Assembly (NCBI GenBank): GCA_003223635.1
Contig: QHVS01000046.1
Location: 1-42,896, forward strand
Source of the DNA: Acidobacteriota bacterium
GTDB taxonomy: Bacteria > Acidobacteriota > Thermoanaerobaculia > Gp7-AA8
Reading direction: 5' to 3'
Length of the DNA stretch: 42,896 nt
How positions within the stretch are numbered: the first letter of the stretch is position 1; each line of letters opens with the position of its first letter. The position numbers were made by a program, and so were the translations under genes. The notes beneath the pieces are model-generated. The model was not told the origin of the DNA and ran no database searches. It was given only the letters and a program-made list of their open reading frames with translations. This document shows positions 22,110 through 42,675 of the stretch, in pieces.

Positions 22110-22230
22110 GGAGAGAGTGATCTTTCTTGATTTGTACGATGCAGAAGAGGCGATCGTCTACGAACGGAATTGATGAACCGGACGACGGAGCATCGCGCAT
22201 CACGAGGAAACGCGAGAGTGGGGCCCTACA

Positions 22231-22258
22231 GCTAACCGCTAACCGCTAACAGCTAAGA
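22231..22258. repeat. Tandem heptamer array GCTAACC GCTAACC GCTAACA GCTAAGA
   Basis: Read directly, in the divergent intergenic region between 22109 and 22300. In the register CGCTAAC the unit differs by 1 nt from the CGTTAAC unit of the hairpin at 23556-23620. Confidence 0.8.
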
Positions 22259-22299
22259 GCTTCTCGCCATCACGACATCGTCAGTCATCCGCGGCTCAA

Positions 22300-23562
22300 A
22301 TGTATCATCGCAGGCGAATGGCGTTCGAAGCCTTTCAAGAACGCGACTACCGCCTCTTCTGGACGTCGCAGTTCTTCTCCAACATCGGCTCATGGATGCA
22401 AGCGGTGGCGCAGGGATGGCTCGTCTATCACCTCACCGATTCACCGTTCCTTCTAGGCTTCGTCGGCTTCGCCAACTCCCTCCCCACGATTTTTCTGATG
22501 CTGCCGGGCGGCGTGGTGGCGGATTCGTTCGATCGGCGCCGTGTGATCAGCGCGTCGCAATGGGCGCAGGCGCTTTGCGCGCTCTTTCTCGCCGCGTCGA
22601 TTCGCACGCATCAGATCAGCACGTGGCAGATCTTCGTCGCGGCGATCGTGGTGGGGATCGCGGTTTCTTTCTCCGCCCCCGCGTACCAGGCCATGGTGGT
22701 CGACCTGCTCGACGACCGCTCGCGCCTCCCGAATGCGGTGGCCATGAACTCTCTGCAGTTCAATCTCTCGCGAGCCATCGGTCCGCTGCTGGCAGGCGTG
22801 ACGCTCTCCGCCTATGGCAGCTTCTGGTGCTTTTTCTTCAACGCCATTTCGTTTCTGCCGCTGATCTGGGTGCTGGGACGCCTGCGGGATCGTCAGCATC
22901 GGTCGGAGCGCGGGCCGATGGTGTCCCAGCTCGCCGAGGGATTCCGCTACGTCCTGCGCGACCGCGTCGTGCTGATCCTCCTGGCCATCGTCGGAGCGGC
23001 GAGCCTGTTCGGCTATCCCTATCTGAGCATCATGCCGATGATCGCCCGCTCACTCTTCACCGACGATGCGCGCGGCCTCGGTGTGCTGATGGGCGGCATC
23101 GGCGGCGGAGCGCTGGCCGGCTCCCTGGCTCTCTCGTTGCGCATGCCGTCGCGCCGCTGGATCGCGTCGATCATTCTCATTTCGCTGGTCATCTTCGGCG
23201 TCAGTCTGGTCGCAGTCGGCTACGTTCGCTCCCAAACGGCCATGACTTCGGTGCTCTTCGTCTGCGGCGCGGCGATGGTGGTCTGCGTGGCGCTGTGCAA
23301 TACATCGATCCAGCGGCGCGTCCCCGATGCCATGCGCGGCCGCGTGCTGAGCATGTATACGTTTGCCTTCTACGCCTTTCTGCCGTTCGGCAACCTGATC
23401 GCAGGGTTGATCGCCGAACACCGCGGATTGCCCATGACGATGTTCACGCTGGGAGGAGGATTGATCGTGTCGGCGGGAATCGCCTGGGTGGCAATTTGGG
23501 TGGAGCGATCGCGCCGGCACGCATCGGGATCATTGGAGGCGCGGGGAGAGGTCAACGGTTAA
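22300..23562 (+). CDS. MFS transporter (MFS_3 / EntS-like)
   Basis: ERDYRLFWTSQFFSNIGSWMQAVAQGWLVYHLTDSPFLLGFVGFANSLPTIFLMLPGGVVADSFDRRRV, with about 12 TM helices. Start is ATG 22300 or ATG 22318. Confidence 0.85.
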   Translation: MYHRRRMAFEAFQERDYRLFWTSQFFSNIGSWMQAVAQGWLVYHLTDSPFLLGFVGFANSLPTIFLMLPGGVVADSFDRRRVISASQWAQALCALFLAASIRTHQISTWQIFVAAIVVGIAVSFSAPAYQAMVVDLLDDRSRLPNAVAMNSLQFNLSRAIGPLLAGVTLSAYGSFWCFFFNAISFLPLIWVLGRLRDRQHRSERGPMVSQLAEGFRYVLRDRVVLILLAIVGAASLFGYPYLSIMPMIARSLFTDDARGLGVLMGGIGGGALAGSLALSLRMPSRRWIASIILISLVIFGVSLVAVGYVRSQTAMTSVLFVCGAAMVVCVALCNTSIQRRVPDAMRGRVLSMYTFAFYAFLPFGNLIAGLIAEHRGLPMTMFTLGGGLIVSAGIAWVAIWVERSRRHASGSLEARGEVNG

Positions 23563-23620
23563 CGGTTAACAGTTAACGGTGGCAGAGCCTCTGGCACCGT
23601 TAACCGTTAACCGTTAACCG
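23556..23620. terminator. Bidirectional hairpin between convergent genes, arms made of tandem AACGGTT / AACCGTT heptamers
   Basis: 23556-23587 pairs with 23589-23620 (32 positions, 2 mismatches at 23571 and 23582). The MFS stop TAA (23560-23562) lies inside the left arm; the HemQ stop (23622-23624) is 2 nt from the right arm. No flanking T-run. Confidence 0.65.
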
Positions 23621-30957: not shown

Positions 30958-31441
30958 CGAGACCGACTCCGGTTGCGGTGCTGCGTACATCGATGATGCC
31001 GGGCGTTGCCGCCGCTTCCGGCGCGTTCGGATCGGTGGCCACCGTTGGATCATTCGGATCGGTGCTGGCCTGCACCTCTTCCCAATTGGCAGCCCCGGTC
31101 ATCGGATCCTTCGGGAGGTTGCGAAGGTAATGGTCCTGCTTGAGCGTGAGCAAGCTGTCCGGATACTTCTGCTTGTCGGCGAAGTAGTCATCGATGGCCT
31201 TGCGCATCTCGAAGAGATCGTGCTTGAGCGCCGCCTCGCGCGCCTTCTGCTGCGCGTATCGAACATTGGAAATGGCCACTCCGGCCAGGATGCCGATGAT
31301 GGTGACGACCACGATCAGCTCGATCAGCGTGAAGCCACGGCTCTTCGAACGATGAACGATGAACGATGAACGATGAACGTTCACCGGCCGTGCTGTGTTG
31401 ATCGTTCCGCGTTCATCGTTCATCGTTTTATTTCTCACCAT
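30932..31441 (-). CDS. GspG-like type II secretion / type IV pseudopilin (prepilin-type N-terminal cleavage/methylation domain)
   Basis: SRG|FTLIELIVVVTIIGILAGVAISNV, then QKAREAALKHDLFEMRKAIDDYF...LRNLPKDPMTG (GspG-like). No Cys. The start is ambiguous (ATG 31441, ATG 31423 or GTG 31384), and all candidates lie within or upstream of the heptamer hairpin. Confidence 0.8.
   Translation of the reverse strand: MVRNKTMNDERGTINTARPVNVHRSSFIVHRSKSRGFTLIELIVVVTIIGILAGVAISNVRYAQQKAREAALKHDLFEMRKAIDDYFADKQKYPDSLLTLKQDHYLRNLPKDPMTGAANWEEVQASTDPNDPTVATDPNAPEAAATPGIIDVRSTATGVGLDGIAYKDW
31346..31428. repeat. Heptamer-repeat hairpin, GAACGAT family, copy 1
   Basis: GAACGAT x4.7 (31347-31379), 18-nt loop, then complementary arm. 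31348-31378 pairs with 31397-31427 with three mismatched positions (31367, 31366 and 31375). 31401-31424 is identical to 37201-37224. Confidence 0.85.
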
Positions 31442-31929
31442 TCGTTGTAATGCGTCCTTCCATCCAGCGCGACGGCGGTTGATTTCGACCGCACTTCGAA
31501 GACGTTGTCGCCGCTGCGGATGGAGCTCGTGGGGTCATCGTTGTCGGACAGCGTGTCCCACTCGCTTTTGTTGGTCATCGGATCGATCAGATCGCGCTGC
31601 CGCAGCAGGCGCACGCTCTTGCCCGTGTTCAACTCGATTGGTTTGGTCAGCTCTTCCAGATTCTTGGGATAGTCGCGCTGGCCGAAGTCGGGTGGCTTCT
31701 TGATGTTGTTCGGGGGGTTGGCCATCCGCAGCTCATGATATCGATCGATCGCGTCGGTGAGTTTACGCAGCCGCTCGTGGAGCTCGAGCTCCTTCTGCCG
31801 GCGGATGCCGAAGCTGACCACCGGCACAGCCACCGACGCCAGAATTCCGATGATCGCCACGACGGTGATCAGCTCCGCGATCGAGAATCCCGACTCGCTG
31901 CTCGCACCCCGCGACCCGCCGTTTCTCAT
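31435..31929 (-). CDS. GspG-like pilin/pseudopilin (first and probably major subunit gene)
   Basis: MRNGGSRGASSESG|FSIAELITVVAIIGILASVAV with Glu+5. No Cys. C-terminus VRSKSTAVALDGRTHYNEW is paralogous to VRSTATGVGLDGIAYKDW of the next gene. ATG 31929 overlaps the secretin TGA (ATGA). Confidence 0.8.
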   Translation of the reverse strand: MRNGGSRGASSESGFSIAELITVVAIIGILASVAVPVVSFGIRRQKELELHERLRKLTDAIDRYHELRMANPPNNIKKPPDFGQRDYPKNLEELTKPIELNTGKSVRLLRQRDLIDPMTNKSEWDTLSDNDDPTSSIRSGDNVFEVRSKSTAVALDGRTHYNEW

Positions 31930-34397
31930 TCCACCTTGGCGCGACCTCCGGAGACGGCGGAGGCGACCACTTCGCCGCGGCCGTTCCTCAGGTCGGGGTT
32001 CTCCATCACCAGGTACGTCTCGCCGCTGATGCCACCCCGGACGCGCAGCGCGGCGATCTCGCCGCCGCTGTTGAACGCCAGGGGCTTGCCGTCGGATGAG
32101 CTGATCCTGATCGTTCCTTTGTCACGATCGATGATCACCGCCGGGGGCGTCTTCGGATCGAGCTTGATGGCCGGTCCGAACATGACCTCGCTGACATCGA
32201 TGGTGCGCGGATCGTAGTGCAGCATCAGTTGCGTCGTGGTCAGACCATCGAGATCCATCCCCACCACGTCCCACAGCTTCTCTTCGCCCGACTTGACCAT
32301 CAGTTTCACTGGCTGCGGCGCGATTCGCGGCGAGAGATTGCTGCTCGTGTCGACCGCCGCCGACTCGGTGCTGGCAGCCAGCGCCACATGCGACGCGCCG
32401 CTTGCCGGCGTCTGCAACTGCGCCTCCGGCTGGACGGGTGGCGGGGGCGGGGGCTGATTGTGGAACGGATCGCTGGGCGCAGTTCCCAGTGGTGGAGGCT
32501 GAGTTGGAACCGGACGCATCACATTGCCCGGTTCGCCGTCCGGCGCCAACGGCAAACCGGTTGCCGGATCGCGGCCGCTGAACTGAGTGGCGCCGCGCGG
32601 TGCGGCGAAGGGATCGGTGCCCGATTGCGATTCGAGCCGAGGAGAGAGACCGCGGAACGAAAGATTGCTCTGCGTTCCCACCCACAACGGTGCCAGATCA
32701 TCCTCGGTGATGTCCGGAATGCGGATGATGTGCGGCGTCATGGTCAGGATCAGATCCGTGCGCAAAGTGCCCTTGTGATTGGCCGTGAACAGCCGGCCGA
32801 TCACCGGAAGATCGCCCAGGAACGGCGTCTTCTGATTGGCATCTGTGTCGTTCTGCTGAATGAGACCGGCCAGGAAGTTCGTCTCGCCGTCTTTCAGACG
32901 GATCGTCGACTCGATCGTGCGCGTGGCAAAGGTCGGCTGCGGAGCCTGGCCGGCCACACCCGGAGCATCAGGCCCCTGGTTCGACACTTCGACGGTGAGC
33001 TTGAGCGTCACCTCGCGGTTGTGGTGGACGCGCGGCTCAATGGAAACCTTGATGCCCACGTCCTGGTACTGATACGACGTCACGGGCGCAAACGTGCCCG
33101 ATGTGGTCGTGCTCACGCTGGTGAAGGTGGACACCGGCACGGGGATGCGATTGCCGATATGGAGCGTCGCCTTCTCCCCCTCGGAGATCCGAAGTTCGGG
33201 GTTGGCCAGCAGTTGACTGTTGCTGATCGATTTCAGCGCAGCGTACGCCGCGTTCGGAATGGAGAAGCTGATCAATCCGCTGTTGATCCTTCGCAGGTCG
33301 TTGATCGTGCCGGCCGCCAGCGGGCTCGTTTTGCCGCTGGCGTCCGCCGTCATCGGCTGGATGATGCCGGGACTGGCCGTGCTGTATCCATTGACGACGA
33401 GGCCGAGGTCGCGGTTCTTGCTCAGATCGATCTGCAGGAGCTCGACGTCGACGACCACTTCCGCCTTGGCTTTGTCGTTGGCCTGAATGATCTTCTCAGC
33501 GATGCGCACTTTGTCCGCTGTGTCGCGGATGGTGATGGCATTGAGCGCTTTGAGGGGAAAGACGTTTCTGGCCTCAATCATGGTCCGGACGACGTTGGTG
33601 ACCTGCTCGGCGTCGCCGTTGGAGAGGTAGAAGGTGCGGATGACGAGGTCTTCGTAGTCGCGGCGAGCCTGCGGGTTGTCCGGGACGATGATGATGGTCC
33701 GCTCGTCGAGAACTTTGTAGAAGTGATTCGCGGCCTGCATCACGCGCTCCAGGGCCTGCTGGGCCGTGACGTCGCGCAGCTCGATGGAGATGCGATCGTC
33801 CTTGACCGCCTGATCGAAGAGAACGTTGATGCCGAACGCGTTGCCCAGCGCGCGATAGATATCCTTCACCGGCGTTTCGCGCGGGAAGGAAAGAGAGATT
33901 GGCTGCTGAGACGCCGGATTGAGTTGTGGCGGCTGGGCCTTGGTGATGCCCCTTGCCGATACCCGCCGCTTGAGCTCATCGATCGTGATGTTCTCCGTCG
34001 CGGCGCGGTTGGCTTCCTGGATCATGTTGACCGCTTTCTCCAGCTCCACGGCGGCGAACTGATTCGTTGAATCGAGCTTCACCGTGACTTCCAACTCCGT
34101 CGCGGCCAGTTGCGCCAGGCGAGTCTGTTCAGCGCCCTTGGCCGCCAGCGCCGCCGCACGAAGCGTTTTGCCCTTCTCGAAGTGGACGCGTGAAGCCTCG
34201 AGCCTGGCCCGGTTGAGGTTCATGCGATAACGCATGTTGTCGGGATCGATCTCCAGCGCCTTCTCGTATTGAATGACGGCCTCGTCCCAGTTTTTCTGCC
34301 GTTCGGCCGTGAGGCCCCTCTGATACGCGTTGAAGCTCACGCAGCCGGCGGTCAGTGTGAGAGCGAGCACCAGGCTCGTTGTTTTCAGTCGATTCAT
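31926..34397 (-). CDS. pilQ: Secretin (PilQ/GspD family) lipoprotein with N-terminal TPR and a C-terminal Pro-rich linker plus cohesin-like domain
   Basis: Lipobox LALTLTAGC, TPR-like WDEAVIQYEKALEIDPDN. Secretin core LLANPELRISEGEKATLHIGNRIPV...YQYQDVGIKVSIEPRV...IRLKDGETNFLAGLIQQ...TPFLGDLPVIGRLF...DLILTMTPHIIR. About 260 extra C-terminal residues follow. Confidence 0.9.
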   Translation of the reverse strand: MNRLKTTSLVLALTLTAGCVSFNAYQRGLTAERQKNWDEAVIQYEKALEIDPDNMRYRMNLNRARLEASRVHFEKGKTLRAAALAAKGAEQTRLAQLAATELEVTVKLDSTNQFAAVELEKAVNMIQEANRAATENITIDELKRRVSARGITKAQPPQLNPASQQPISLSFPRETPVKDIYRALGNAFGINVLFDQAVKDDRISIELRDVTAQQALERVMQAANHFYKVLDERTIIIVPDNPQARRDYEDLVIRTFYLSNGDAEQVTNVVRTMIEARNVFPLKALNAITIRDTADKVRIAEKIIQANDKAKAEVVVDVELLQIDLSKNRDLGLVVNGYSTASPGIIQPMTADASGKTSPLAAGTINDLRRINSGLISFSIPNAAYAALKSISNSQLLANPELRISEGEKATLHIGNRIPVPVSTFTSVSTTTSGTFAPVTSYQYQDVGIKVSIEPRVHHNREVTLKLTVEVSNQGPDAPGVAGQAPQPTFATRTIESTIRLKDGETNFLAGLIQQNDTDANQKTPFLGDLPVIGRLFTANHKGTLRTDLILTMTPHIIRIPDITEDDLAPLWVGTQSNLSFRGLSPRLESQSGTDPFAAPRGATQFSGRDPATGLPLAPDGEPGNVMRPVPTQPPPLGTAPSDPFHNQPPPPPPVQPEAQLQTPASGASHVALAASTESAAVDTSSNLSPRIAPQPVKLMVKSGEEKLWDVVGMDLDGLTTTQLMLHYDPRTIDVSEVMFGPAIKLDPKTPPAVIIDRDKGTIRISSSDGKPLAFNSGGEIAALRVRGGISGETYLVMENPDLRNGRGEVVASAVSGGRAKVE

Positions 34398-34404
34398 TCT
34401 GTAG

Positions 34405-34472
34405 GTCCTGTGTCCTGTGTCCTGTGTCCTGTGTCCTCAGAATTCAGGACGCAGGACTCAGGACGCAGGACT
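34405..34472. repeat. Heptamer-repeat hairpin, GTCCTGT family
   Basis: GTCCTGT x4 plus GTCCTCA (34405-34439), loop containing GAATTC, then CAGGAC-N x4 (34445-34472). Four stem blocks: three 6-bp GTCCTG/CAGGAC helices plus an innermost 5-bp GTCCT/AGGAC helix (34433-34437 with 34446-34450), separated by single T-G or T-T positions. Confidence 0.85.
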
Positions 34473-34503
34473 CTCATCTTTTGACGCTCGTCCAAAATAA
34501 ATG

Positions 34504-35660: not shown

Positions 35661-36250
35661 TGCAGGATCCTCGTAACAGACGGCCGGTAGTCGACGCCGA
35701 TTCCGAACCGATAGCCGCTGTCGCCTCGATCTTCCGATGTGGGAAATGCTTTGTTGAAGCGAAGATCGTGATTCAGGCGGTCGAGCATGTGCACCATGCT
35801 CTCACTGTTTTTGCCGACGGCGGCCAGCACGAGGTGCACATAGCCGTCTTTGCTGAAGTTCGGGGCGATCGACTCCAGACGAACGTCATCGGGCAGGACG
35901 CGCTCCAGCCGATCGAGCAACTCGCTCCAGGAGAATGCTCGCTCCGCCAGCCTGGCATTGGCGAATTGCGTCTGCTCAGACAGGAGCCTCACGTTGAACC
36001 CGCGGAGACGTTGGGTCAGTTCCGCGGTCTGCCGCTGTTCCTGTTGGGTCTGGCTCTCCAGATCCGTGATCTTGTTGCGCGTCGACTTCGTGTCCCGAAT
36101 GTAGCGATAGTACGTATCGATGTTGTTCAACATCATGAAGGCAACGAGCAAAGAGGAGACGACGACCACGGCGTACACCGGCCGGTAGTCGCGATAGGGT
36201 CGGGAGGCGAGATTGAGATGCAACGGTTTCACGCGAACACTCCCGTGCAC
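35657..36250 (-). CDS. pilN: PilN-like pilus assembly protein
   Basis: LHLNLASRPYRDYRP (INLLP-type N-terminus), one TM (VYAVVVVSSLLVAFMML), coiled-coil, then VRLESIAPNF...VHLVLAAVG. Both candidate starts are GTG: 36250, or 36232 which forms a GTGA overlap with the pilM stop. Confidence 0.7.
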   Translation of the reverse strand: MHGSVRVKPLHLNLASRPYRDYRPVYAVVVVSSLLVAFMMLNNIDTYYRYIRDTKSTRNKITDLESQTQQEQRQTAELTQRLRGFNVRLLSEQTQFANARLAERAFSWSELLDRLERVLPDDVRLESIAPNFSKDGYVHLVLAAVGKNSESMVHMLDRLNHDLRFNKAFPTSEDRGDSGYRFGIGVDYRPSVTRILQ

Positions 36251-37122
36251 GCGGTCAACTCCGCCTCATACGCGCCGATGCCTTCCGGGACGCGTTCAGC
36301 GAAATCGCTCAGGGCTACGGTGCGCACCGGCGCACCGAATTCCGTGGCGATCGCCGAGGAGAGGGCGCCGTCGATGCGGTTGCCGGCCAGATAGCAGCTC
36401 TCGATCGATTCCGTCCGCAGCGTGTCGCGCAGATAGCTCGCCGACAGTTTGATTTCCTGGTCCAGCGTCCGCTGGCCATTCAGATTGCGCGACCGGATGA
36501 AAAGAGGCTGGTTGCCGCGGAACGCCCCGGTGGTGAAGTCATGCTCGCGCACGAAGAAGAAGATGCGGTCGCCGGTGGTGGCCGGCTCGCGCACGGTAAT
36601 CGCGTTCCAGATGTTGAGGCCCATCGGTTCGACCAGCACGATCTCGATCCCAGCTTCGGCAAACAGGCGCTCGATGCCGGCCAGCGTCTTTTCCATGGCG
36701 CTGACGGCCAGGACTCTGGCTGGAGCAGGAGTGCGGGACAGCACCTCGAAGGCCAGGCGCAGCATCGCTGGATCGATCGGCATCGTCCGCTTCAGGCTCC
36801 ATCGAACCATCTGATTGGCTTCGTCCTTCGCCTCCGGGAGCGACGGAAGTTCCAGGATGTTCATGCGGAACCACGAGTCCGGGAGGAGCATGGAGGCCTT
36901 GTCCCACCGGCCGCTCTCGACGCGCAGACGGCGCAGGACGTCGGCGATGGCTGCCGGGTTGACCAGATCCGGTGTGACCACGCCGGGCGCGAACGTCGCC
37001 GCCCCGAGGCGGTAGCTCTTGGCCTGCACGATCTGCGGATCCTTGCGCCCGCGACTGAGCCGCGCGTGGATCAGCGAGTCAGAATCGAGAACGATGACGT
37101 CGGGAGGGAAGGATCGGGCCAT
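36229..37122 (-). CDS. pilM: PilM-like (actin-fold) pilus assembly protein
   Basis: Placed immediately upstream of pilN/O/P. VIVLDSDSLIHARL...LLPDSWFRMNILELPSLPEAKDEANQMVRWSLKRTMP...LAVSAMEKTLAGIERLFAEAGIEIVLVEP fits PilM_2-type layout. ATG 37122 preferred over TTG 37128. Confidence 0.7.
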   Translation of the reverse strand: MARSFPPDVIVLDSDSLIHARLSRGRKDPQIVQAKSYRLGAATFAPGVVTPDLVNPAAIADVLRRLRVESGRWDKASMLLPDSWFRMNILELPSLPEAKDEANQMVRWSLKRTMPIDPAMLRLAFEVLSRTPAPARVLAVSAMEKTLAGIERLFAEAGIEIVLVEPMGLNIWNAITVREPATTGDRIFFFVREHDFTTGAFRGNQPLFIRSRNLNGQRTLDQEIKLSASYLRDTLRTESIESCYLAGNRIDGALSSAIATEFGAPVRTVALSDFAERVPEGIGAYEAELTACTGVFA

Positions 37123-37126
37123 GGTC

Positions 37127-37224
37127 AAACGATGAACGATGAACGATGAACGATGAACAGAGCTCGACGGCTGAGAGTTCGTTGTCTCAGTTCATCGTTC
37201 ATCGTTCCGCGTTCATCGTTCATC
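37127..37224. repeat. Heptamer-repeat hairpin, GAACGAT family, copy 2
   Basis: (A/G)AACGAT x4.7 (37127-37158), ~31-nt spacer, then complementary GTTCATC units (37190-37224). 37128-37158 pairs with 37190-37220 with one 2-nt mismatch. Fills the pilB-pilM gap. Confidence 0.9.
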
Positions 37225-37225
37225 T

Positions 37226-38848
37226 TTACTCCACGAACGTAACCTTGTTGATTTCGCGCAGCGTGGTGCGTCCTTCCATCACCTTCTTCAGCGCCGATTC
37301 GCGCAGAAAGGTCATCCCTTCTTCTTTCGCCGCTTTCTTGATTTCTGACGCCGGACGCCGATCGAGAATCATTCCGCGAATACGATCCGAGAGGTCGAGA
37401 AGTTCCGCGATGGCCGAGCGGCCGTGGAATCCTGTTCCGTTGCACTCCAGGCAGCCCGCGCCCTCGGAGAAAAGCTGGTCACGGTATTCCGCCGGATTCA
37501 GGCCCGACTCGATCAGGAACGCGTCGGGATATCGCACCTCGCGCTTGCACTCCTGACAGATCTTCCGCACGAGGCGCTGGGCCAGCACGCAGTTGAGCGC
37601 CGACACGAAGTTATAGAGATCGACTTTCATGTTGAGAAATCGGCCGAGGACGTCGACCACGTTGTTGGCATGCACGGTGGTGAACACCAGGTGACCGGTG
37701 AGCGCCGACTGCACCGCGATCTGCGCGGTCTCTTCGTCGCGGATCTCGCCGACCATGATCTTGTCCGGATCGTGCCGGAGGATCGAGCGCAGTCCGCGGG
37801 CGAACGTCAGCCCCTTCTTCTCGTTCACCGGAATCTGGGTGATGCCCCGGAGCTGGTACTCCACCGGATCCTCGATGGTGATGATCTTGTCCTCCGGGCT
37901 CTGGATCTCGGAAAGCGCGGCATAGAGTGTGGTCGTTTTGCCCGAGCCGGTGGGGCCGGTGACCAGCACCATGCCGTATGGCTCTTTGATGAATTTGCGG
38001 AACTTCACCAGCATGTCGTCATCGAAGCCGAGGACGTCGAGGCGGAGGTTTTTGAACTCCTTGTTCATCGACTCCTTGTCCAGGATGCGGATGACGGCAT
38101 CTTCGCCATGGGCGCTGGGGATGATGGAGACGCGGAAGTCGATGGTGCGGCCGGTGACGCGCAGCTTGAAGCGGCCGTCTTGCGGCACGCGCTTCTCGGC
38201 AATGTCGAGCTCCGACATGACCTTGATGCGGCTGATGATCGTGGAGTGATGGCGCTTGTCGATCGGGTCGAGCGCTTCGTACAGCACGCCGTCGATGCGG
38301 TACTTCACCACCACTTCGTTATCGCGCGTCTCGATGTGAATGTCCGACGCTCGCCGCTGGATGGCGTTGAAGACGATCGAGTCGACCAGTTTGATGATGG
38401 GCGACGACTCCTGCTGCGTGATGGAGTCGATCGTCAGGGTCTCTTCGCCCTCGTCATCCTCGCCGACAAGCTGCAGTCGGAAGCCTTCCGTTGCCTCATC
38501 GAGGACGCGCTGTGTCGATTCCGATTTCTCCAGCTTGTCGCGAATGGCCGCCGGTGAGGCCACCTTCACTTTCAGCGGCGCGCCGAGGAGGAGCTCCAGC
38601 TCGTCGAGCTTGAGGACGTCGGTGGGATCGCCCACCACCACTGAGATGTAGCCGTTCTCTCGCCTCTCGGGCAAGAACTGGTAGCGGATCATCAGCTCCA
38701 GCGGCACGTCGCGAAAAAGCTGGTGGTCGACTTGAAAATGCTCCAGATCGACGTAAGGGAAGCCGTACTGCTCCGCCAGGCGTTGCGCGCGTGCAGCCTC
38801 GCCGGTCGGATCGGCAGCCTTGTACAGCGAGCGGGGATCAGTAGCCAT
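37226..38848 (-). CDS. pilB: Type IV pilus assembly / type II secretion ATPase (GspE/PilB family)
   Basis: N-terminal T2SSE_N-like domain, Walker A VLVTGPTGSGKTTTLYAAL, Asp box ITIEDPVEY, Walker B DKIMVGEIRDEETA, His box TGHLVFTTVHANN, and the tetracysteine CQECK...CLECNGTG. Confidence 0.95.
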   Translation of the reverse strand: MATDPRSLYKAADPTGEAARAQRLAEQYGFPYVDLEHFQVDHQLFRDVPLELMIRYQFLPERRENGYISVVVGDPTDVLKLDELELLLGAPLKVKVASPAAIRDKLEKSESTQRVLDEATEGFRLQLVGEDDEGEETLTIDSITQQESSPIIKLVDSIVFNAIQRRASDIHIETRDNEVVVKYRIDGVLYEALDPIDKRHHSTIISRIKVMSELDIAEKRVPQDGRFKLRVTGRTIDFRVSIIPSAHGEDAVIRILDKESMNKEFKNLRLDVLGFDDDMLVKFRKFIKEPYGMVLVTGPTGSGKTTTLYAALSEIQSPEDKIITIEDPVEYQLRGITQIPVNEKKGLTFARGLRSILRHDPDKIMVGEIRDEETAQIAVQSALTGHLVFTTVHANNVVDVLGRFLNMKVDLYNFVSALNCVLAQRLVRKICQECKREVRYPDAFLIESGLNPAEYRDQLFSEGAGCLECNGTGFHGRSAIAELLDLSDRIRGMILDRRPASEIKKAAKEEGMTFLRESALKKVMEGRTTLREINKVTFVE

Positions 38849-38851
38849 GAC

Positions 38852-40060
38852 TTATTGTTGCCCCACCGAGGTGAGCTGGAACAGCGGGAGATAGAACGCG
38901 TAAAGCAGCGTGGCGATCACCAGACCCATGAATACCAGAATCACCGGCTCGATGGCCGCCACCAGGCGCGACAGCCTGGACTCGATTTCCTCATCGTAGA
39001 ACTCGCTCACATTGCCGAGCATTTCCGTGAGTGCGCCGGTCGATTCACCCACTTTGATCATTTCCACGGCCAGGTCGCTGATCACCCCCGTCGATTCGAG
39101 AGAGCGCCACAGCGGCTCGCCTTCCCGCACATTTTGAACGATGCCGGCAACCTTCGACGAGATCATTTGATTGGTGACCGATTGCGAGGCGATCTCGATG
39201 GCCGGGACCATCGGCGTGCCGCCGCTCAAGAGCGTTCCCAGAGACTGGGTGAACTGCATGATGGCGAAGCGATGCAGGATTCCGCCAACCATGGGAAGCT
39301 GCAGCTTGAGGCTGTCCCAGGTGACCCGGCCGGTGGTGGCGATCCAGCGCCGCACGACGAGGACAATGATGATCGCCGCGACCACGGTAATGATCAGATG
39401 GTCGTTGAGCGCCGTGGCCACGGTGATCAGCAGCTTCGTGAACGCCGGGAGGTCCGCATTGAAGCCGGCATAGAACTCAGCGAAGCGCGGGATCACCTTG
39501 GTCAGCATGATGAAGACCATCGCCGCCGACAGCGTCACCAATACCGTCGGATAGATCAGGGCGCTGACGACGCGTTTGCGCAGCGTCACGATCATCTTCT
39601 GATAACGGAGGAAGCGCCGCAACACGCCTTCCAGATCGCCCGACCGCTCGCCCGCCCGCAATGAAGTGGAGTAAATCGGAGGAAAGACGTCGCCGTACGA
39701 GCCGAAGGCATCGGACAGCGAGACGCCTGATTTCAATTTTTCCCGGATATCGGCCAGCACCTCGCGAAAGCGAGGGTTCTTCTGGCGCTCCAGCATGATG
39801 TCGAAGGACTGCAGGATCGGAAGACCGGCGCGCACGAGCGCCAGCAGCTCCTGATTAAAGAGGAGGAACCGCTCCACGGAGACGACTTTGCGCGAGCGGG
39901 GAAGGAAATCCCGAAGGGCTGGCATTCCGCGCTTGGCCGCGAAAACGTGCATCCCCTGGCGGCGCAGCTCCTTTTCGGCCGCAGTGGCCGTCGAGGCCTG
40001 GACATGGCGCTCGAGGATCTGGCCGTCGGGGGTACCGACCCTGACGATAAATTCAGGCAT
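38852..40060 (-). CDS. pilC: Type IV pilus / T2SS platform protein (GspF/PilC family)
   Basis: 402 aa with two T2SSF repeats (FNQELLALVRAGLPILQSFDIM...; FTQSLGTLLSGGTPMVPAIEIA...) and three TM segments. Confidence 0.95.
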   Translation of the reverse strand: MPEFIVRVGTPDGQILERHVQASTATAAEKELRRQGMHVFAAKRGMPALRDFLPRSRKVVSVERFLLFNQELLALVRAGLPILQSFDIMLERQKNPRFREVLADIREKLKSGVSLSDAFGSYGDVFPPIYSTSLRAGERSGDLEGVLRRFLRYQKMIVTLRKRVVSALIYPTVLVTLSAAMVFIMLTKVIPRFAEFYAGFNADLPAFTKLLITVATALNDHLIITVVAAIIIVLVVRRWIATTGRVTWDSLKLQLPMVGGILHRFAIMQFTQSLGTLLSGGTPMVPAIEIASQSVTNQMISSKVAGIVQNVREGEPLWRSLESTGVISDLAVEMIKVGESTGALTEMLGNVSEFYDEEIESRLSRLVAAIEPVILVFMGLVIATLLYAFYLPLFQLTSVGQQ

Positions 40061-40170
40061 TCTCTGGTGTTATCCGTCTTTTTCGACGGGCGACGAGAGG
40101 TAAACGTTTCAGATTATTGAATCTTCCCGGAGCTTGGCGAGGTGCCGTTCCGCACCATACACTCACATCG
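40061..40170. promoter_or_regulatory. Divergent promoter region for the pilC-led operon and the HEAT-PilT gene
   Basis: Only non-coding gap between divergent genes, and relatively AT-rich (ttattgaatctt). A possible TTGGCG-N18-TACACT on the + strand ends ~7 nt before ATG 40171; this is not a confident assignment. Confidence 0.35.
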
Positions 40171-42675
40171 ATGGCCCTCTTCCAATCGGATGTGAAGGAG
40201 ACGGTGCGCCGTCTCTCGGCGAAAGACTTTGCCTCCCCCGAAGAACGCGATGAGCTGTTGGAACGGCTGGCGTCTTCCGAGGGTGTGCGCGCCCGCGACG
40301 TTCTCTGGATGCTGTTTCGGCCTGACCGCGCCTTGCGGGACGCTGCGGTGAACCTGCTCACGCGGCTCGGGGATCCCGAAACCCTCGACGGATTCGTCGC
40401 CGAGGCACGGGGCAAACCGGAGCCGGCAATCCGAGCGGCGGCGGCGAGCTTATCGGCGCTGGGAATTGCGGGCCTCGAGCAACGCCTGACCCAAATGCTC
40501 GCCCCTCCGGCAAGAGAAACGAAGGAATCGCGCGAGAACCAAGCGATCGCCCGCCGCATTCTTCTCGAAGGACCGGTGACGAAATCGACCGAGCCACTTT
40601 TGTGGCAGCTCGCATCCGCCGGAGCGACTGAAGAGCGATTGCAATTCGTCACCAAGCTGGCGTCAGGAGACCTGGACAACCGCTCGATTGCGCGATGGCA
40701 GCGGATGGCCGCGGATCCCGATCAGCAGGTTCGCGAGAAGGCGCTGGAGATCCTCGCCGCGCGCGCGCCAGGCACCTCGATCGATCTGTTCGTTCAGGAG
40801 CTTCCTCGCGTCAGCGATCCGATCCGACAGCGCCTCGTGCAGGCGCTAACCCGTGCCACTGCCAGCCAGGGGACTGAACTCGCGGACAAGCTTCTTCCTC
40901 TGATCGCCTCCGGCGACGCAACGATCCGCAAATCGGTCCTCGAGATTCTGGTCGCCAATGGCGACACCACGGCGATCCTCAAGCGCTACGTTCAATTCGC
41001 AAAAACGCTGGCCGGATTCGTTCGCGACCGCGCTCTTGATTCGATCAGCGGCTTCGGACCGCAGTTCCTGAACGCGACCATCGATCTCTTTCGCGATCCC
41101 GACGCCGATATTCGAGCCGGCGCCATCGCGGTTGCCGACGCAATCGAAGACCCCCGCATCGCCTTGCCCATGATCGAACTGCTGAAGGATCCCGATTGGT
41201 GGATTCGGATCTCCGCGGCCGATTCGTTGGGAAGGCTGAAAGCGGTACAGGCCGTGGAGCCGTTGATTTCCTCCCTTTCCGATGCCGAGGTGAAATGGTC
41301 CGCGGTCCAGGCCCTGGGTCGGATCGCCGATCCGCGGGCCCTCCCGGCGCTGGGCCGGATGCTCGGTGACCCGGCGTCGGACGTCCGAATCGAAGTCATG
41401 CAAGCCCTGCGAAATTTTGTCCATCCCCAGGTGAAGTCAGCCTTGCTGGAGGTCGCCCAGAAAGATCCGGATCGCATGGTGCGCACGCGGGCCATCGATA
41501 TTCTGGACGAGCTCTCTCCGCCGGGGGATCCCTCACGCGCTCAGGTCGATGCGGTTCGCTCCCAGGCTCTGGCGGCTACGGCGTCGAAGAGCGACGGCCG
41601 GCTCAGCGCCTTGCTCATCGCTACGCGAAATCAGGGAGGATCGGATTTTCACCTCAGCGTCGGGCAGCCTCCGATGGTTCGTCTGGCCGCGGGCTTGTTG
41701 CGCGCGCAGGGCGAACCATTTACTGCTGAGGTTACCGCGGCGCTTTTGAAAGAGATCATGACCGAAGGGCAGTGGAACACGCTGGAAAGCGCTTACCAGG
41801 TGGACTTCTGCTACTACATTCCGCAGGCGGGGCGCTATCGCGCCAACGTGTTTTACGACCATCGAGGCTACAACGCCGTATTCCGGGGCATTCCTGAGAA
41901 GCCACCGACAGTCGCGGACATCGGATTGCCTTCCCACCTCGCGGAGATCGCCGACTATCACCAGGGCCTCGTGCTGATCTGCGGCCCTTCCGGATCGGGG
42001 AAGTCGACCACCCTCGCCGCGCTGGTGAATCTATTTAACGAGACGCGGAACGATCACGTGATGATGATGGAGGATCCCGTCGAGTTCGTGCACCCCTTCA
42101 AGAGCTGTCTGGTCAATCAACGCGAAGTGGGGACGCACACCGGATCGTACGCACGCGCTCTTCGCGCTGCCCTGCGCGAAGATCCCGACGTCATCGTCAT
42201 CGGTGAGCTCCGCGACAACCAGTCGGTCTCCCTGGCTCTCACCGCGGCGGAAACCGGTCATATCGTGCTGGGCACATTGAATTCGACGAGTGCGCCAAAG
42301 GCAATCGACCGAATCCTGTCTAGTTTTCCCGTCGACGAGCAGCCGCAGGTGCGGGCCTCGCTCTCCGAGTCGCTGAAATACGTGATCGCCCAGCGTCTGC
42401 TGCCGGCCAGAGAAGGACGAAAGCAGGTTGCGGCCTTCGAGATCCTCAAAGGAACCGGCACCGTGGCCAGCATGATCCGCGATGAAAAGACCTTTCAGAT
42501 TTACTCGGCCATGCAGATCGGCAGGTCGCAAGGCATGCAGACCTTCGATGAGGCGCTCCGCGGTCTGGTGGAGCGGAATCAGATCACGGCCGAGACCGCG
42601 TACATGGCGGCCACCAAGAAAGAGGATTTCGAGTCGCTGCTGCCGCCGGATTTCTTGAAGAAGACGCGGGGATGA
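40171..42675 (+). CDS. Fusion protein: N-terminal HEAT/ARM-like repeat region (~470 aa) plus C-terminal PilT-type hexameric ATPase
   Basis: HEAT-like repeats (DPDADIRAGAIAVADAI, DPDWWIRISAADSLGRL, EVKWSAVQALGRIADPRALPAL, DPASDVRIEVMQALRNF, DPDRMVRTRAIDILDEL). PilT part: GGSDFHLSVGQPPMVR, Walker A ICGPSGSGKSTT, MMMEDPVEF, Walker B DPDVIVIGELRD, TGHIVLGTLNSTS. ATG 40171 preferred over TTG 40117. Confidence 0.85.
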   Translation: MALFQSDVKETVRRLSAKDFASPEERDELLERLASSEGVRARDVLWMLFRPDRALRDAAVNLLTRLGDPETLDGFVAEARGKPEPAIRAAAASLSALGIAGLEQRLTQMLAPPARETKESRENQAIARRILLEGPVTKSTEPLLWQLASAGATEERLQFVTKLASGDLDNRSIARWQRMAADPDQQVREKALEILAARAPGTSIDLFVQELPRVSDPIRQRLVQALTRATASQGTELADKLLPLIASGDATIRKSVLEILVANGDTTAILKRYVQFAKTLAGFVRDRALDSISGFGPQFLNATIDLFRDPDADIRAGAIAVADAIEDPRIALPMIELLKDPDWWIRISAADSLGRLKAVQAVEPLISSLSDAEVKWSAVQALGRIADPRALPALGRMLGDPASDVRIEVMQALRNFVHPQVKSALLEVAQKDPDRMVRTRAIDILDELSPPGDPSRAQVDAVRSQALAATASKSDGRLSALLIATRNQGGSDFHLSVGQPPMVRLAAGLLRAQGEPFTAEVTAALLKEIMTEGQWNTLESAYQVDFCYYIPQAGRYRANVFYDHRGYNAVFRGIPEKPPTVADIGLPSHLAEIADYHQGLVLICGPSGSGKSTTLAALVNLFNETRNDHVMMMEDPVEFVHPFKSCLVNQREVGTHTGSYARALRAALREDPDVIVIGELRDNQSVSLALTAAETGHIVLGTLNSTSAPKAIDRILSSFPVDEQPQVRASLSESLKYVIAQRLLPAREGRKQVAAFEILKGTGTVASMIRDEKTFQIYSAMQIGRSQGMQTFDEALRGLVERNQITAETAYMAATKKEDFESLLPPDFLKKTRG

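What the first reader, a model, noticed from the sequence alone, without database searches (positions are those of the whole stretch)
37127..37224. A ~31-bp-stem hairpin built from tandem heptamers exactly fills the pilB-pilM gap inside an operon
The gap between the pilB stop (37226) and the pilM ATG (37122) consists of three parts: 4.7 tandem GAACGAT units, a ~31-nt spacer, and the complementary tandem array. 37128-37158 pairs with 37190-37220 with a single 2-nt mismatch (37139-40 vs 37208-09).

Both arms are 7-nt arrays, so the stem can also form in registers slipped by 7 nt. The 24 nt atcgttccgcgttcatcgttcatc are shared with the copy at 31401-31424, so this is a dispersed element family.

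Its position inside a co-directional, otherwise overlapping gene string argues for an intra-operon attenuator, an RNase-processing or stability element, or a stoichiometry control between ATPase/platform and alignment-complex genes. It does not look like an end-of-operon terminator.

Four hairpins of the same architecture but three different unit sequences occur in this 43-kb window. I do not recognise this as a described repeat class.
Basis: partly seen in the sequence, partly recalled or inferred. Interest (0 to 1): 0.62.

Follow-up and report, generated by a model that had tools for sequence, protein, structure and literature searches.

The report
Translated heptamer-repeat hairpin between secretion genes
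The hairpin between the secretion ATPase gene and the pilM-like gene is real: it is one copy of a fast-changing family of hairpin repeats built from 7-base units, and at this junction a small throw-away reading frame runs through it from stop codon to start codon, probably handing ribosomes from one gene to the next.

Summary
Window 37128-37158 and 37190-37224 are inverted arrays of a 7-nt unit. They fold at -58 to -62 kcal/mol and fill the 103-nt gap between a GspE/PilB-type ATPase gene and a PilM-like gene.

It is not a device specific to this operon. Many relatives have no gap at all (TGAtATG). Others carry a hairpin at the same spot built from other heptamers, nearly all of the form GAANNNN.

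Three hairpin types (GAACGAT, GAAGTTC, GAATGCA) recur in two PilM clades that are only about 75-79% identical in pilM DNA, so the types do not follow the gene tree. The GAAGTTC type is a dispersed family: about 30 copies in one genome, with conserved arms, unique loops and unrelated flanks.

No signal of selection on the mRNA fold was found. Sense and antisense folds are equally stable over 69 hairpins.

What this junction does keep is an open frame. In 13 of 19 junction sequences, an ATG 2-4 nt after the ATPase stop opens a 30-39-codon ORF. That ORF ends 1-3 nt before the pilM ATG, or overlaps it. The figure is 0 of 19 on the antisense strand and 1 of 78 for family copies elsewhere.

Best reading: a REP-like heptamer repeat tolerated through a MIRU-like ribosome-relay ORF. 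Translation is untested.

The parts
37226..38848 (-). GspE/PilB-family secretion ATPase gene (540 aa); stop TAA at 37226-37228
   Evidence: Pfam T2SSE E=7e-130 plus MshEN. NCBIfam GspE 541 bits and PilB 538 bits, both below the curated cut-offs.
37190..37224 (-). 5' arm of the hairpin in the transcript: GATGAAC units with one variant unit (CGCGG, window 37206-37210 on the + strand). The variant removes the in-frame TGA.
   Evidence: Frame analysis.
37159..37189 (-). 31-nt spacer, forming the loop and a short inner helix. It differs completely from the spacer of the sister copy at 31380-31396.
37128..37158 (-). 3' arm in the transcript: 4.4 perfect GTTCATC units, free of stop codons in every frame. 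It ends 5 nt before the pilM-like ATG.
37125..37223 (-). Relay sORF of 32 codons plus TGA: MNDERGTMNDELRQRTLSRRALFIVHRSSFIV*. Its ATG lies 2 nt after the ATPase stop. GGAG in the last ATPase codons lies 5 nt upstream of that ATG. Its stop lies 2 nt before the pilM-like ATG.
   Evidence: Translation. Equivalent ORFs in 13 of 19 orthologous junction sequences. Translation itself is inferred, not shown.
36229..37122 (-). PilM-like gene (297 aa). Start ATG at 37120-37122. Overlaps the next gene by 22 nt.
   Evidence: Homologues are named PilM by JGI. No Pfam or NCBIfam hit.
31347..31427 (-). Sister copy of the same GAACGAT family, with the same CGCGG variant unit. It lies in the long open frame upstream of a GspG-like prepilin (...TMNDERGT...VHRSSFIVHRSKSRG|FTLIEL).
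34405..34471 (-). Hairpin of another heptamer type (GTCCTGN / GGACACA) in the gap before the secretin gene. Its start-proximal arm repeats an AGGA-containing heptamer that relatives carry as a single TCAGGAC.
23550..23620 (.). Hairpin of a third type (GGTTAAC / ACCGTTA) between convergent genes

Best explanation
The hairpin is one copy of a dispersed family of palindromic repeats whose arms are tandem 7-nt units; this copy is of the GAACGAT type. Such families behave like REP/REPIN-type intergenic repeats. They have many copies per genome, conserved arms and variable loops, they sit in short gaps at gene ends, and they are almost absent from coding sequence.

The copy in the ATPase|pilM gap is not needed for the operon to work. 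A large sister clade has the two genes abutting as TGAtATG.

The occupant of the site turns over. Different heptamer types replace each other, even among strains whose pilM genes are 93-97% identical. Inferred causes are recombination or ectopic conversion between family members, together with 7-nt slippage and copying between the two arms (intrastrand template switching).

The feature selection keeps at this junction is translatability. A 30-39-codon ORF starts 2-4 nt after the ATPase stop and reads through the whole hairpin. It stops 1-3 nt before the pilM ATG.

Inferred mechanism, step by step:
1. A ribosome terminating on the ATPase gene has already opened the foot of the stem.
2. It re-initiates at the exposed AUG.
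3. It unwinds the hairpin while translating the throw-away peptide.
4. It terminates next to the pilM AUG and re-initiates there.

This restores the short stop-to-start distances that translational coupling needs. Meanwhile the stem keeps the region just upstream of the pilM start closed to free ribosomes.

Shown: the anatomy, the family, the turnover and the conserved frame. Inferred: translation, the relay, and how copies spread.
For: Anatomy and fold.

Family:
- (GAACGAT)3 occurs in more than 120 loci of many phyla.
- When paired, the polarity is always 5'-(GAACGAT)n...(ATCGTTC)n-3': 31 to 0 under the strict criterion.
- In soil metagenome contigs the summed depth over the array is 130-270 times that of the flanks, and the flanks of those contigs differ.
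- The GAAGTTC type (26-mer GAAGTTCGAAGTTCGAATGAAGAATT) occurs at 36 loci. About 30 are contigs of one genome, with conserved arms, unique loops and unrelated flanks.
- Contexts of that family: 19 co-directional, 9 convergent, 2 divergent, 2 inside genes.

Dispensable: no gap in L124-130, L137, L139 and many metagenome loci.

Turnover:
- All 15 contigs of relatives with 74-96% identical PilM carry a hairpin here. Four unit types are seen.
- GAACGAT, GAAGTTC and GAATGCA each occur in both PilM clades.
- Arms of one type are near-identical across clades whose pilM is 75-79% identical.
- ATPase-tail haplotypes do not follow pilM clades.

No RNA-fold selection signal: the sense fold is more stable in 33 of 68 hairpins and the antisense fold in 35.

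Relay ORF:
- 13 of 19 junction sequences have the edge-to-edge ATG ORF. None of 19 does on the antisense strand.
- The frame ending at the terminal stop is open across the whole gap in 13 of 19 sequences, and across all but the first 11-20 nt in two more.
- That stop varies among relatives: TGA, TAG or TAA.
- ORF lengths are 30, 32, 33, 34, 36 and 39 codons, so several length changes all kept the frame.
- Base rate in family copies elsewhere is 1 of 78. Fisher p = 8e-11, ignoring relatedness.
- The CGCGG variant unit is what opens the frame in the otherwise six-frame-closed GAACGAT type.

Literature: coupling needs short stop-start distances, and MIRU repeats carry a coupled ORF (PMC12548453).
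Against: - There are no transcript or ribosome data for this organism.
- Six of 19 junction sequences lack the ATG-initiated edge-to-edge ORF: L152, L154, L121, L123, L159 and L151. In L151 and L152 the frame is still open across the gap.
- The 19 sequences are related, so the p-values overstate independence. A conservative count gives 9 of 12 distinct alleles (p = 4e-4) or (1/3)^5 = 0.004 for frame-keeping.
- Part of the pattern follows from conserved stem-foot letters (GATGAA...TTCATC) that contain the ATG.
- A ribosome would have to initiate at an AUG at the foot of a -55 kcal/mol stem and unwind it.
- Heptamer hairpins in general are not kept open. Of 69, 42 are closed in all six frames, and there is no sense bias.
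- Some allele calls rest on short metagenome contigs that end inside the repeat (L144, L146) and could be mis-joined.
- No transposase or other spreading mechanism was identified.
Confidence: 0.55

Rival explanations
1. The RNA hairpin itself is the selected feature. It would set the ratio of ATPase/platform proteins to alignment-complex proteins within the operon. It could do this by protecting the upstream mRNA 3' end or the downstream 5' end after processing. Or it could act as a stable structure right after the stop codon that lowers re-initiation (an insulator).
For: - A very stable stem starts 1 nt after the stop codon.
- A hairpin of similar size is present in every member of a large clade despite complete sequence turnover. 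Gaps are 81-120 nt.
- Stable structures just downstream of stop codons are reported to govern re-initiation (PMC7518266).
- REP hairpins in E. coli operons stabilise upstream mRNA (own knowledge).
Against: - Sense folds are not favoured over antisense folds (33 vs 35, mean difference -0.03 kcal/mol).
- The same kind of hairpin also lies between convergent and divergent genes.
- A whole sister clade has no gap at all.
- An insulator reading does not explain a frame kept open from stop to start.
- There are no RNA data.
Confidence: 0.2
2. The hairpin is a neutral by-product of mutation. Seven-nt slippage plus copying between the arms makes and homogenises such hairpins wherever a gap allows. On this view the spanning ORF is coincidence or inherited by descent.
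For: - Heptamer simple repeats are over-represented in many bacteria, and polymerase slippage has been proposed as the cause (Mrazek 2007 via PMC4679880).
- At the pilP|secretin junction, the array looks amplified from a local TCAGGAC that relatives carry once.
- One-unit copy-number differences occur between close relatives (L159 vs L160).
- No strand bias was seen in stability or arm purity.
- Most units contain no stop codon, which makes open frames easier to get by chance.
Against: - The edge-to-edge ORF occurs in 13 of 19 junction sequences. It occurs in 0 of 19 on the antisense strand and 1 of 78 in family copies elsewhere.
- The frame is kept through at least five length changes.
- The terminal stop switches among TGA, TAG and TAA.
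- The variant unit that opens the GAACGAT frame is kept in both translated copies in the window.
- Arms of one type are near-identical across clades whose genes are 75-79% identical. Plain drift does not give that.
Confidence: 0.15
3. The heptamer arrays are binding sites for a protein on DNA or RNA. Candidates are a cold-shock-domain, S1 or nucleoid protein that reads 7-nt units, or hairpin-cleaving repair nucleases (SbcCD-type) that make the site a recombination hot spot.
For: - GAA recurs at 7-nt spacing in nearly every allele at this junction.
- Paired GAACGAT arrays have a fixed polarity, 31 to 0.
- The same units recur across phyla.
- Binding proteins have been proposed for TAACTGA repeats and Nostoc heptamers (PMC4679880; bioRxiv 10.1101/2022.06.06.494920).
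- Flanking haplotypes are mosaic around the hairpin.
Against: - Other junctions in the same operon use unrelated units without GAA.
- The GAA/TTC anchor is also explained by descent from the conserved stem foot (GATGAA...TTCATC).
Confidence: 0.07
4. It is a slipped-strand phase-variation switch. Gain or loss of a 7-nt unit would shift the sORF frame or change stem strength, turning pilM and the downstream genes on or off.
For: - Seven is not a multiple of three.
- Heptamer repeats control hmw1A expression in Haemophilus influenzae (PMC8262952 and PMC12721329, listed).
- One-unit differences exist between L159 and L160.
Against: - No insertion or deletion at the site was seen in contigs of four soil metagenome runs.
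- Unit numbers are identical in the window and four contigs of relatives with 92-94% identical PilM.
- Arrays are short, at 4-5 units.
Confidence: 0.03

Closest known systems
MIRU, mycobacterial interspersed repetitive units (Supply et al. 1997, as summarised in PMC12548453)
   Same: A short mobile-looking repeat sits between genes of an operon. It carries a small ORF coupled to the gene at its insertion site, which is thought to let the insertion sit there with little effect on expression.
   Different: As far as I know, MIRUs are 46-101-bp direct repeat units of mycobacteria, not hairpins and not built from heptamers (own knowledge). Their ORF overlaps the neighbouring gene by 4 nt. Here the spacings are 1-4 nt, the element is a roughly 31-bp stem, and the organism is an acidobacterium.
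Paired inverted heptamer arrays of Xanthomonas, (GGGAATC)n, and GGGGA(T/C)T repeats of Nostoc (PMC4692102); cyanobacterial STRR heptamers (Mazel 1990, cited there)
   Same: Tandem 7-nt units, mostly intergenic. There are 70-75 convergent pairs per Xanthomonas genome that can form stem-loops. They lie at the same gene junctions in two species, with differences in length and sequence. They are transcribed and their function is unknown.
   Different: There it is one G-rich unit with G-quadruplex potential. Here many unrelated units occur in one genome, types turn over at one site, and a spanning ORF is present.
REP / REPIN elements (GTAG- and CGTC-tagged palindromic repeats, PMC3733652)
   Same: Dispersed intergenic palindromes with conserved arms, located inside operons and between convergent genes and rare in promoter gaps. 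They form stable mRNA hairpins.
   Different: REPs have a fixed sequence of about 20-40 bp with a GTAG or CGTC head and a partner transposase (RAYT). Here the arms are tandem heptamers, no such head is present, and no transposase is known.
TAACTGA direct repeats of marine Beggiatoaceae, Cyanobacteria and Bacteroidetes (PMC4679880)
   Same: A heptamer unit in short tandem arrays a few nucleotides upstream of start codons. The same unit occurs in distant phyla, and a role in translation has been proposed.
   Different: Those are almost all direct arrays: 169 direct sets against one indirect repeat. They are not hairpins and have no spanning ORF.
Translational coupling by RNA unfolding or termination-reinitiation (phage f1 genes VII/IX, MS2 coat-lysis; PMC12548453, PMC6728339) and the ribosome termination structure (PMC7518266)
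   Same: A stem closes the downstream start region unless a ribosome arrives from upstream. Stop-to-start distances of a few nucleotides.
   Different: In those cases the upstream gene itself reaches the stem. Here a separate 32-codon relay frame would carry the ribosome across a 103-nt insertion.

Membership tests
Heptameric long simple-sequence repeats (Mrazek 2007) and paired inverted heptamer arrays (PMC4692102) | Tandem array of a 7-nt unit, longer than chance | tested here: met
   4.4 and 5.0 copies. Period 7 gives 5 arrays in the window against 0 for other periods, and 35 against 1-4 in 283 kb of related loci.
Heptameric long simple-sequence repeats (Mrazek 2007) and paired inverted heptamer arrays (PMC4692102) | Two arrays of complementary units in convergent orientation close together, in an intergenic region | tested here: met
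   Arms 31 nt apart, 29 of 31 positions complementary. They lie in a 103-nt intergenic gap.
REP / REPIN | Many near-identical palindromic copies dispersed in one genome | tested here: inconclusive
   Two copies in the window. The related GAAGTTC type has about 30 copies in one relative's genome.
REP / REPIN | GTAG or CGTC tetranucleotide at one end (PMC3733652) | tested here: not met
   The ends read AAACGATG... and ...CATCGTTCATCTTT. Neither end carries GTAG or CGTC.
REP / REPIN | Partner RAYT (IS200/IS605-like) transposase in the genome | not testable with these tools
MIRU | Intercistronic repeat carrying an ORF coupled to the flanking gene | tested here: met
   32-codon ORF at 37125-37223, starting 2 nt after the ATPase stop and ending 2 nt before the pilM ATG. 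The like is seen in 13 of 19 orthologous junctions. Translation was not tested.
MIRU | Mycobacterial direct-repeat unit of 46-101 bp with -4 nt overlaps (unit size from own knowledge; -4 nt spacing from PMC12548453) | tested here: not met
   It is a hairpin of heptamers in an acidobacterium, with spacings of +1 to +4 nt.
MITE | Terminal inverted repeats flanked by a target-site duplication | tested here: not met
   The flanks GGTCA|AACGATG and GTTCATC|TTTAC share no direct repeat. Loops differ between copies.
Intrinsic (Rho-independent) terminator | G+C-rich stem with a loop of 3-8 nt, followed by a U tract | tested here: not met
   No terminator-like site at the hairpin. The stem is followed by UUUGACC on the transcript, and the spacer is 31 nt.
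Phase-variable simple-sequence contingency locus | Unit number varies within populations or among close strains | tested here: not met
   No indel in four metagenome runs. The same unit numbers are seen in L141, L142, L150 and L143. One-unit differences are seen only between L159 and L160.
Curated RNA families (Rfam 15) | Match at the gathering score | tested here: not met
   No match anywhere in the window.

The most novel reading that the evidence does not exclude
Heptamer-armed palindromes are a cross-phylum class of spreading or converting repeats. They behave like REPINs but have no known transposase. They compete for the same stop/start junctions as interchangeable cassettes.

Where the junction needs translational coupling, the host keeps only those copies that carry a stop-to-start relay ORF. 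Hairpin plus relay ORF then form an obligate coupling gate: pilM is translated only by ribosomes handed over from the ATPase gene.

The shared units (GAACGAT, GAATGCA) in Acidobacteriota, Planctomycetota, Verrucomicrobiota, Chloroflexota and others would then reflect a common generating mechanism or horizontal spread.
Probability: 0.3. Interest if true: 0.75.

Novelty: new variant of a known kind. Interest (0 to 1): 0.6.

Why it matters
Heptameric repeats have been known to be oddly abundant in bacteria since 1990-2007, yet no origin or role has been established. This junction offers a natural experiment.

- The same gap is either empty (TGAtATG) or filled by at least five different heptamer hairpins.
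- Hairpin types do not follow the gene tree.
- One feature is held constant: an open frame from stop codon to start codon.

That turns a vague question ('what do heptamer repeats do?') into specific reporter tests of a ribosome relay through a very stable stem. It also shows how a genome can tolerate repeat insertions inside tightly coupled operons.

For annotation, it warns that such gaps in Thermoanaerobaculia and other soil phyla may hold translated mini-ORFs. These repeats also break short-read contigs, which may scramble alleles in metagenome assemblies.

Tried and rejected
- **Whole-genome census.** I used about 1 Mb of fetched loci instead.
- **Transcript evidence.** The four RNA runs found hold only conserved ATPase pieces and heptamer arrays from other organisms. 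They say nothing about this locus.
- **Rfam.** No match.
- **Terminator and promoter scan.** Nothing at the hairpin.
- **G-U wobble / sense-versus-antisense stability.** Used as a test for RNA-level selection; null result.
- **Arm purity, 5' versus 3' arm, relative to transcription.** Null result, 30 vs 36.
- **General test of whether heptamer hairpins are kept open on the sense strand.** The first version was confounded by truncated hairpin bounds. Redone with full bounds, it was null: 6 sense-only against 9 antisense-only. The relay ORF is therefore a property of this junction, not of the class.
- **First flank-gene heuristic.** It miscalled the window's own genes, because hairpins close spurious antisense ORFs. 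I replaced it with a greedy caller based on third-position G+C. That caller is still crude for start codons.
- **Purine-rich arm first as a general rule.** Rejected, because other units are pyrimidine-first.
- **The sORF as a read-through extension of the ATPase.** Rejected, because the frame relation between the two varies, with offsets of 2, 3 or 4 nt.
- **A functional peptide.** Unlikely. The peptide sequences differ completely between alleles. They share only a polar first half and a hydrophobic second half, which follows from GAA pairing with TTC.
Full report
**1. What is there**

On the - strand the window encodes, in order:
- a GspF/PilC-type platform protein (38852-40060);
- a GspE/PilB-type ATPase (37226-38848);
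- a 297-aa PilM-like protein (36229-37122);
- three small proteins that overlap one another by 4-22 nt;
- a secretin (31926-34397);
- pseudopilins.

The ATPase stop (TAA, 37226-37228) and the next ATG (37120-37122) are 103 nt apart.

That gap holds AACGATG x4.4 (37128-37158), a 31-nt spacer, and GTTCATC x5 (37190-37224) with one variant unit. The arms pair over 31 positions with a single 2-nt mismatch. Either strand folds at about -58 to -62 kcal/mol, z = -5.4 and -6.4.

**2. More than chance, and one of a class**

The window has five exact period-7 arrays and none of any other period from 2 to 15. In 283 kb of related loci not chosen for any repeat, there are 35 period-7 arrays against 1-4 for periods 6, 8, 9 and 12.

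I examined about 1 Mb of fetched loci, a sample biased towards GAACGAT. It holds 110 inverted heptamer pairs and 98 single arrays.
- Only 6 hairpins lie inside called genes, although 87% of the sequence is called coding.
- 69 lie between co-directional genes, 17 between convergent genes and 8 between divergent genes. That is close to the background of gene pairs.

The gene calls come from a crude caller of my own.

**3. Organism and relatives**

The PilM-like protein finds 19 orthologous loci in Thermoanaerobaculia (Acidobacteriota) genomes at 59-71% identity. It also finds 15 contigs of closer relatives at 74-96% and 42 metagenome loci.

**4. The junction compared**

Across the operon, the junctions M|N, N|O and O|P overlap by 4-25 nt in almost every locus and never hold a heptamer hairpin. 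Hairpins appear only at the non-overlapping junctions (F|B, B|M, P|Q, Q|X, X|pilin), and each lineage has its own units.

At B|M the states are:
- no gap, TGAtATG, in a whole clade (L124-130, L137, L139 and more than 20 metagenome loci), and TAAATG in L157/L158;
- short plain gaps (L134, L181, L183, L185, L190);
- an unrelated palindromic repeat (L133, L180);
- heptamer hairpins elsewhere.

Hairpin units at B|M include GAACGAT (window), GAAGTTC, GAATGCA, GAAGGAT, GAATTTC, AAATTTC, GAACGCA, GAAGGCA and GAACACG. Nearly all fit GAANNNN.

The stem foot is shared: GATGAA at the 5' edge pairs with TTCATC at the 3' edge. The hairpin is therefore dispensable for the operon, but once present it persists.

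**5. Turnover that ignores the gene tree**

In a pilM tree, the window groups with L140, L141/142/150 and L149 (support 96). Their pilM DNA is 93-97% identical. Yet this group holds GAACGAT (window, L141, L142, L150), GAAGTTC (L140) and GAATGCA (L149; also L155).

The sister clade, 75-79% identical, again holds all three: L152; L145, L151 and L153; L147 and L148.

Hairpins of one type are near-identical across the two clades. For example, the 5' arm of L140, L145 and L153 is identical, while the loops differ.

The last 120 nt of the ATPase gene fall into haplotypes that do not follow the pilM clades. So the region is mosaic.

L145 and L146 are 99.6% identical downstream but show different 3' arms. 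L146 starts inside the repeat, however, so an assembly artefact is possible there.

**6. The types are dispersed families**

- (GAACGAT)3 occurs in more than 120 loci of Acidobacteriota, Planctomycetota, Chloroflexota, Bacteroidota and others.
- Paired copies always have the polarity 5'-(GAACGAT)n...(ATCGTTC)n-3'. The count is 31 to 0 under the strict criterion. Two loose exceptions, L066 and L100, appear.
- In four soil metagenome runs, the summed depth over this array is 130-270 times that of the flanks, and the flanks of those contigs differ. The GTCCTGT array reaches only about 6 times.
- The 26-mer GAAGTTCGAAGTTCGAATGAAGAATT, which includes the inner part of the L140 allele, occurs at 36 loci. 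About 30 of them are contigs of a single genome. Arms are conserved, every loop is different and the flanks are unrelated. That genome's own ATPase|pilM junction carries a copy (L221).
- Contexts of that family: 19 co-directional, 9 convergent, 2 divergent, 2 inside genes.
- GAATGCA arrays occur in more than 115 loci of many phyla.

This is REP/REPIN-like behaviour.

At the pilP|secretin junction, relatives without a hairpin carry a single TCAGGAC before the start codon. The window and L121 carry four or five copies of that unit plus the inverted arm. So arrays can also grow from local sequence.

**7. No sign of selection on the mRNA fold**

I compared sense and antisense folds over 69 co-directional hairpins. 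The sense fold is more stable in 33 and the antisense fold in 35, with a mean difference of -0.03 kcal/mol. The two arms are equally periodic.

The hairpin is not followed by a U tract, and no terminator-like site is scored there. Rfam has no match. The RNA runs found do not cover this organism.

The attenuator, processing and stability readings therefore remain untested. None of these tests supports them.

**8. What is conserved: a frame through the hairpin**

In the window, an ATG lies 2 nt after the ATPase stop. GGAG in the last ATPase codons lies 5 nt upstream of it. This ATG opens a 32-codon ORF, MNDERGTMNDELRQRTLSRRALFIVHRSSFIV*, at 37125-37223. Its TGA lies 2 nt before the pilM ATG.

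A perfect (GAACGAT)n array has TGA in all three frames. The variant unit (CGCGG) removes exactly the in-frame one. The same variant is present in the sister copy at 31347-31427, which lies in the open frame leading into a prepilin.

Among 19 non-identical junction sequences with a heptamer hairpin:
- 13 have an ATG 2-4 nt after the stop (20 nt in L135) whose ORF of 23-39 codons runs through the hairpin. It ends 1-3 nt before the pilM ATG, or overlaps it: ATGA in L136, an 8-nt overlap in L135.
- The frame that ends at the terminal stop is open across the whole gap in 13 of the 19. These include L151 and L152, which lack the edge ATG. It is open across all but the first 11-20 nt in L121 and L154.
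- On the antisense strand, which has the same composition, the same stem and an equivalent ATG at its foot, the count is 0 of 19.

Among close relatives the terminal stop is TGA (window), TAA (L143) or TAG (L141, L142, L150, L144, L152). ORF lengths of 30, 32, 33, 34, 36 and 39 codons show several length changes that all kept the frame. The spacers outside the ORF vary by single nucleotides.

In copies of the GAAGTTC family elsewhere, an edge-to-edge ATG ORF occurs in 1 of 78 copy-orientations. Among heptamer hairpins in general there is no sense bias in openness, and 42 of 69 are closed in all six frames.

Statistics:
- Fisher's test, 13/19 against 1/78: p = 8e-11.
- More conservative counts that allow for relatedness: 9 of 12 distinct alleles, p = 4e-4.
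- Frame-keeping over at least five length changes: (1/3)^5 = 0.004.

The peptides share no sequence. They share only a polar first half and a hydrophobic second half, which follows from GAA pairing with TTC. So translation, not the product, would be what matters.

**9. Mechanism proposed**

Shown: the anatomy, the family, the turnover and the conserved frame. The rest is inferred.

The ancestral junction was a tightly coupled TGAtATG, with the GGAG in the ATPase tail serving pilM. A palindromic repeat in this gap pushes stop and start about 100 nt apart. Coupling falls off with distance (PMC12548453).

Copies that carry a stop-to-start frame restore two short hand-overs: 2-4 nt at one end and 1-3 nt at the other.
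1. The ribosome ending on the ATPase gene has already melted the stem foot that holds the AUG.
2. It re-initiates there and unwinds the stem while translating.
3. It ends next to the pilM AUG and re-initiates.
4. The stem keeps the 15 or so nucleotides upstream of the pilM AUG closed to free ribosomes. pilM output would then follow ATPase translation.

This is how MIRU repeats are thought to sit inside mycobacterial operons (Supply 1997, as summarised in PMC12548453).

How copies spread and are swapped is not known. Candidates are ectopic conversion between arms, recombination at a break-prone palindrome, or an unidentified enzyme.

**10. Compared with what is known**

- Over-representation of heptamer simple repeats is published (Mrazek 2007 via PMC4679880).
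- So are 70-75 convergent (GGGAATC)n pairs per Xanthomonas genome, kept at the same junctions with differences in length and sequence (PMC4692102).
- So are TAACTGA arrays just upstream of start codons (PMC4679880).
- So are Nostoc heptamers near start codons with effects on expression (bioRxiv 10.1101/2022.06.06.494920).

Five full-text searches found no description of such hairpin families in Acidobacteria, of type turnover at one junction, or of a relay ORF through a heptamer hairpin. I therefore rate it a new variant of known kinds: heptamer inverted pairs, REP-like repeats and the MIRU-like relay.

Earlier notes of this scan describe the same class in this genome and relay-ORF ideas in other genomes. 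I treated them as leads. The junction comparison, the allele-versus-tree analysis, the family search and the frame statistics above were done here.

**11. Limits**

- There are no expression data.
- The sequences are related, so the tests are not independent.
- Many relatives are short metagenome contigs that break at the repeat.
- The gene calls are crude.
- The window's own genome could not be searched.

Noticed in passing
window 18398-19007: A 297-bp unit repeated 2.1 times at 99% identity, a recent tandem duplication inside a coding region (Tandem Repeats Finder).
   Followed up: no
window 10181-10331: A cluster of inverted repeats built on GCGGGGAGAGGG / CCCTCTCCCCGC (I10, I14, I20). Similar sequences fill the N|O gap of L131 and the 273-nt B|M gap of L122. 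This is a second repeat family, not built from heptamers.
   Followed up: no
L133 4556-4668 and L180, same junction: The ATPase|pilM gap holds a different palindromic repeat (GTCATCCTGAGCGCAGCGAAGGACC...). So the site accepts unrelated hairpin elements as well.
   Followed up: partly
window 34472-34503 and the orthologous P|Q gaps: A short conserved motif or hairpin (GACG...CGTCA) directly after the pilP-like stop is kept in nearly all relatives, upstream of the variable heptamer hairpin.
   Followed up: no
window 34405-34471; L122, L133-L135, L138 P|Q gaps: The start-proximal arm repeats an AGGA-containing heptamer (GGACACA x4). Relatives carry one or two copies of TCAGGAC at that place. The series looks like stepwise amplification of the ribosome-binding region.
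   Followed up: partly
window 37112-37163 in soil metagenome runs X1-X4: Summed contig depth over the (GAACGAT)n array is 130-270 times that of the flanks, with many different flanking sequences. The GTCCTGT array reaches only about 6 times. GAACGAT is an unusually common unit in soil communities.
   Followed up: partly
L001-L120: Paired GAACGAT arrays always have the purine-rich array on the 5' side of the hairpin, 31 to 0 under the strict criterion. This is unexplained: the stem itself would be equally stable in either polarity.
   Followed up: partly
L140-L155, last 120 nt of the ATPase gene: ATPase-tail haplotypes differ by 15-23% among strains whose pilM is 94-96% identical. That suggests recombination breakpoints at or near the hairpin.
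   Followed up: partly
L159 versus L160 / L123: Near-identical AAATTTC hairpins differ by exactly one 7-nt unit in the 5' arm. This is a direct example of unit slippage.
   Followed up: no
window 22228-22261 and 11849-11875: Single, unpaired heptamer arrays (ACAGCTA/ACCGCTA and GTTGTCG) next to gene starts or ends.
   Followed up: no
window 40053-40679 and upstream: Earlier notes of this scan describe an ECF sigma / anti-sigma pair heading this conserved T2SS/T4P-hybrid operon in relatives. The 208-aa ORF upstream of the GspF-like gene has no Pfam match.
   Followed up: no
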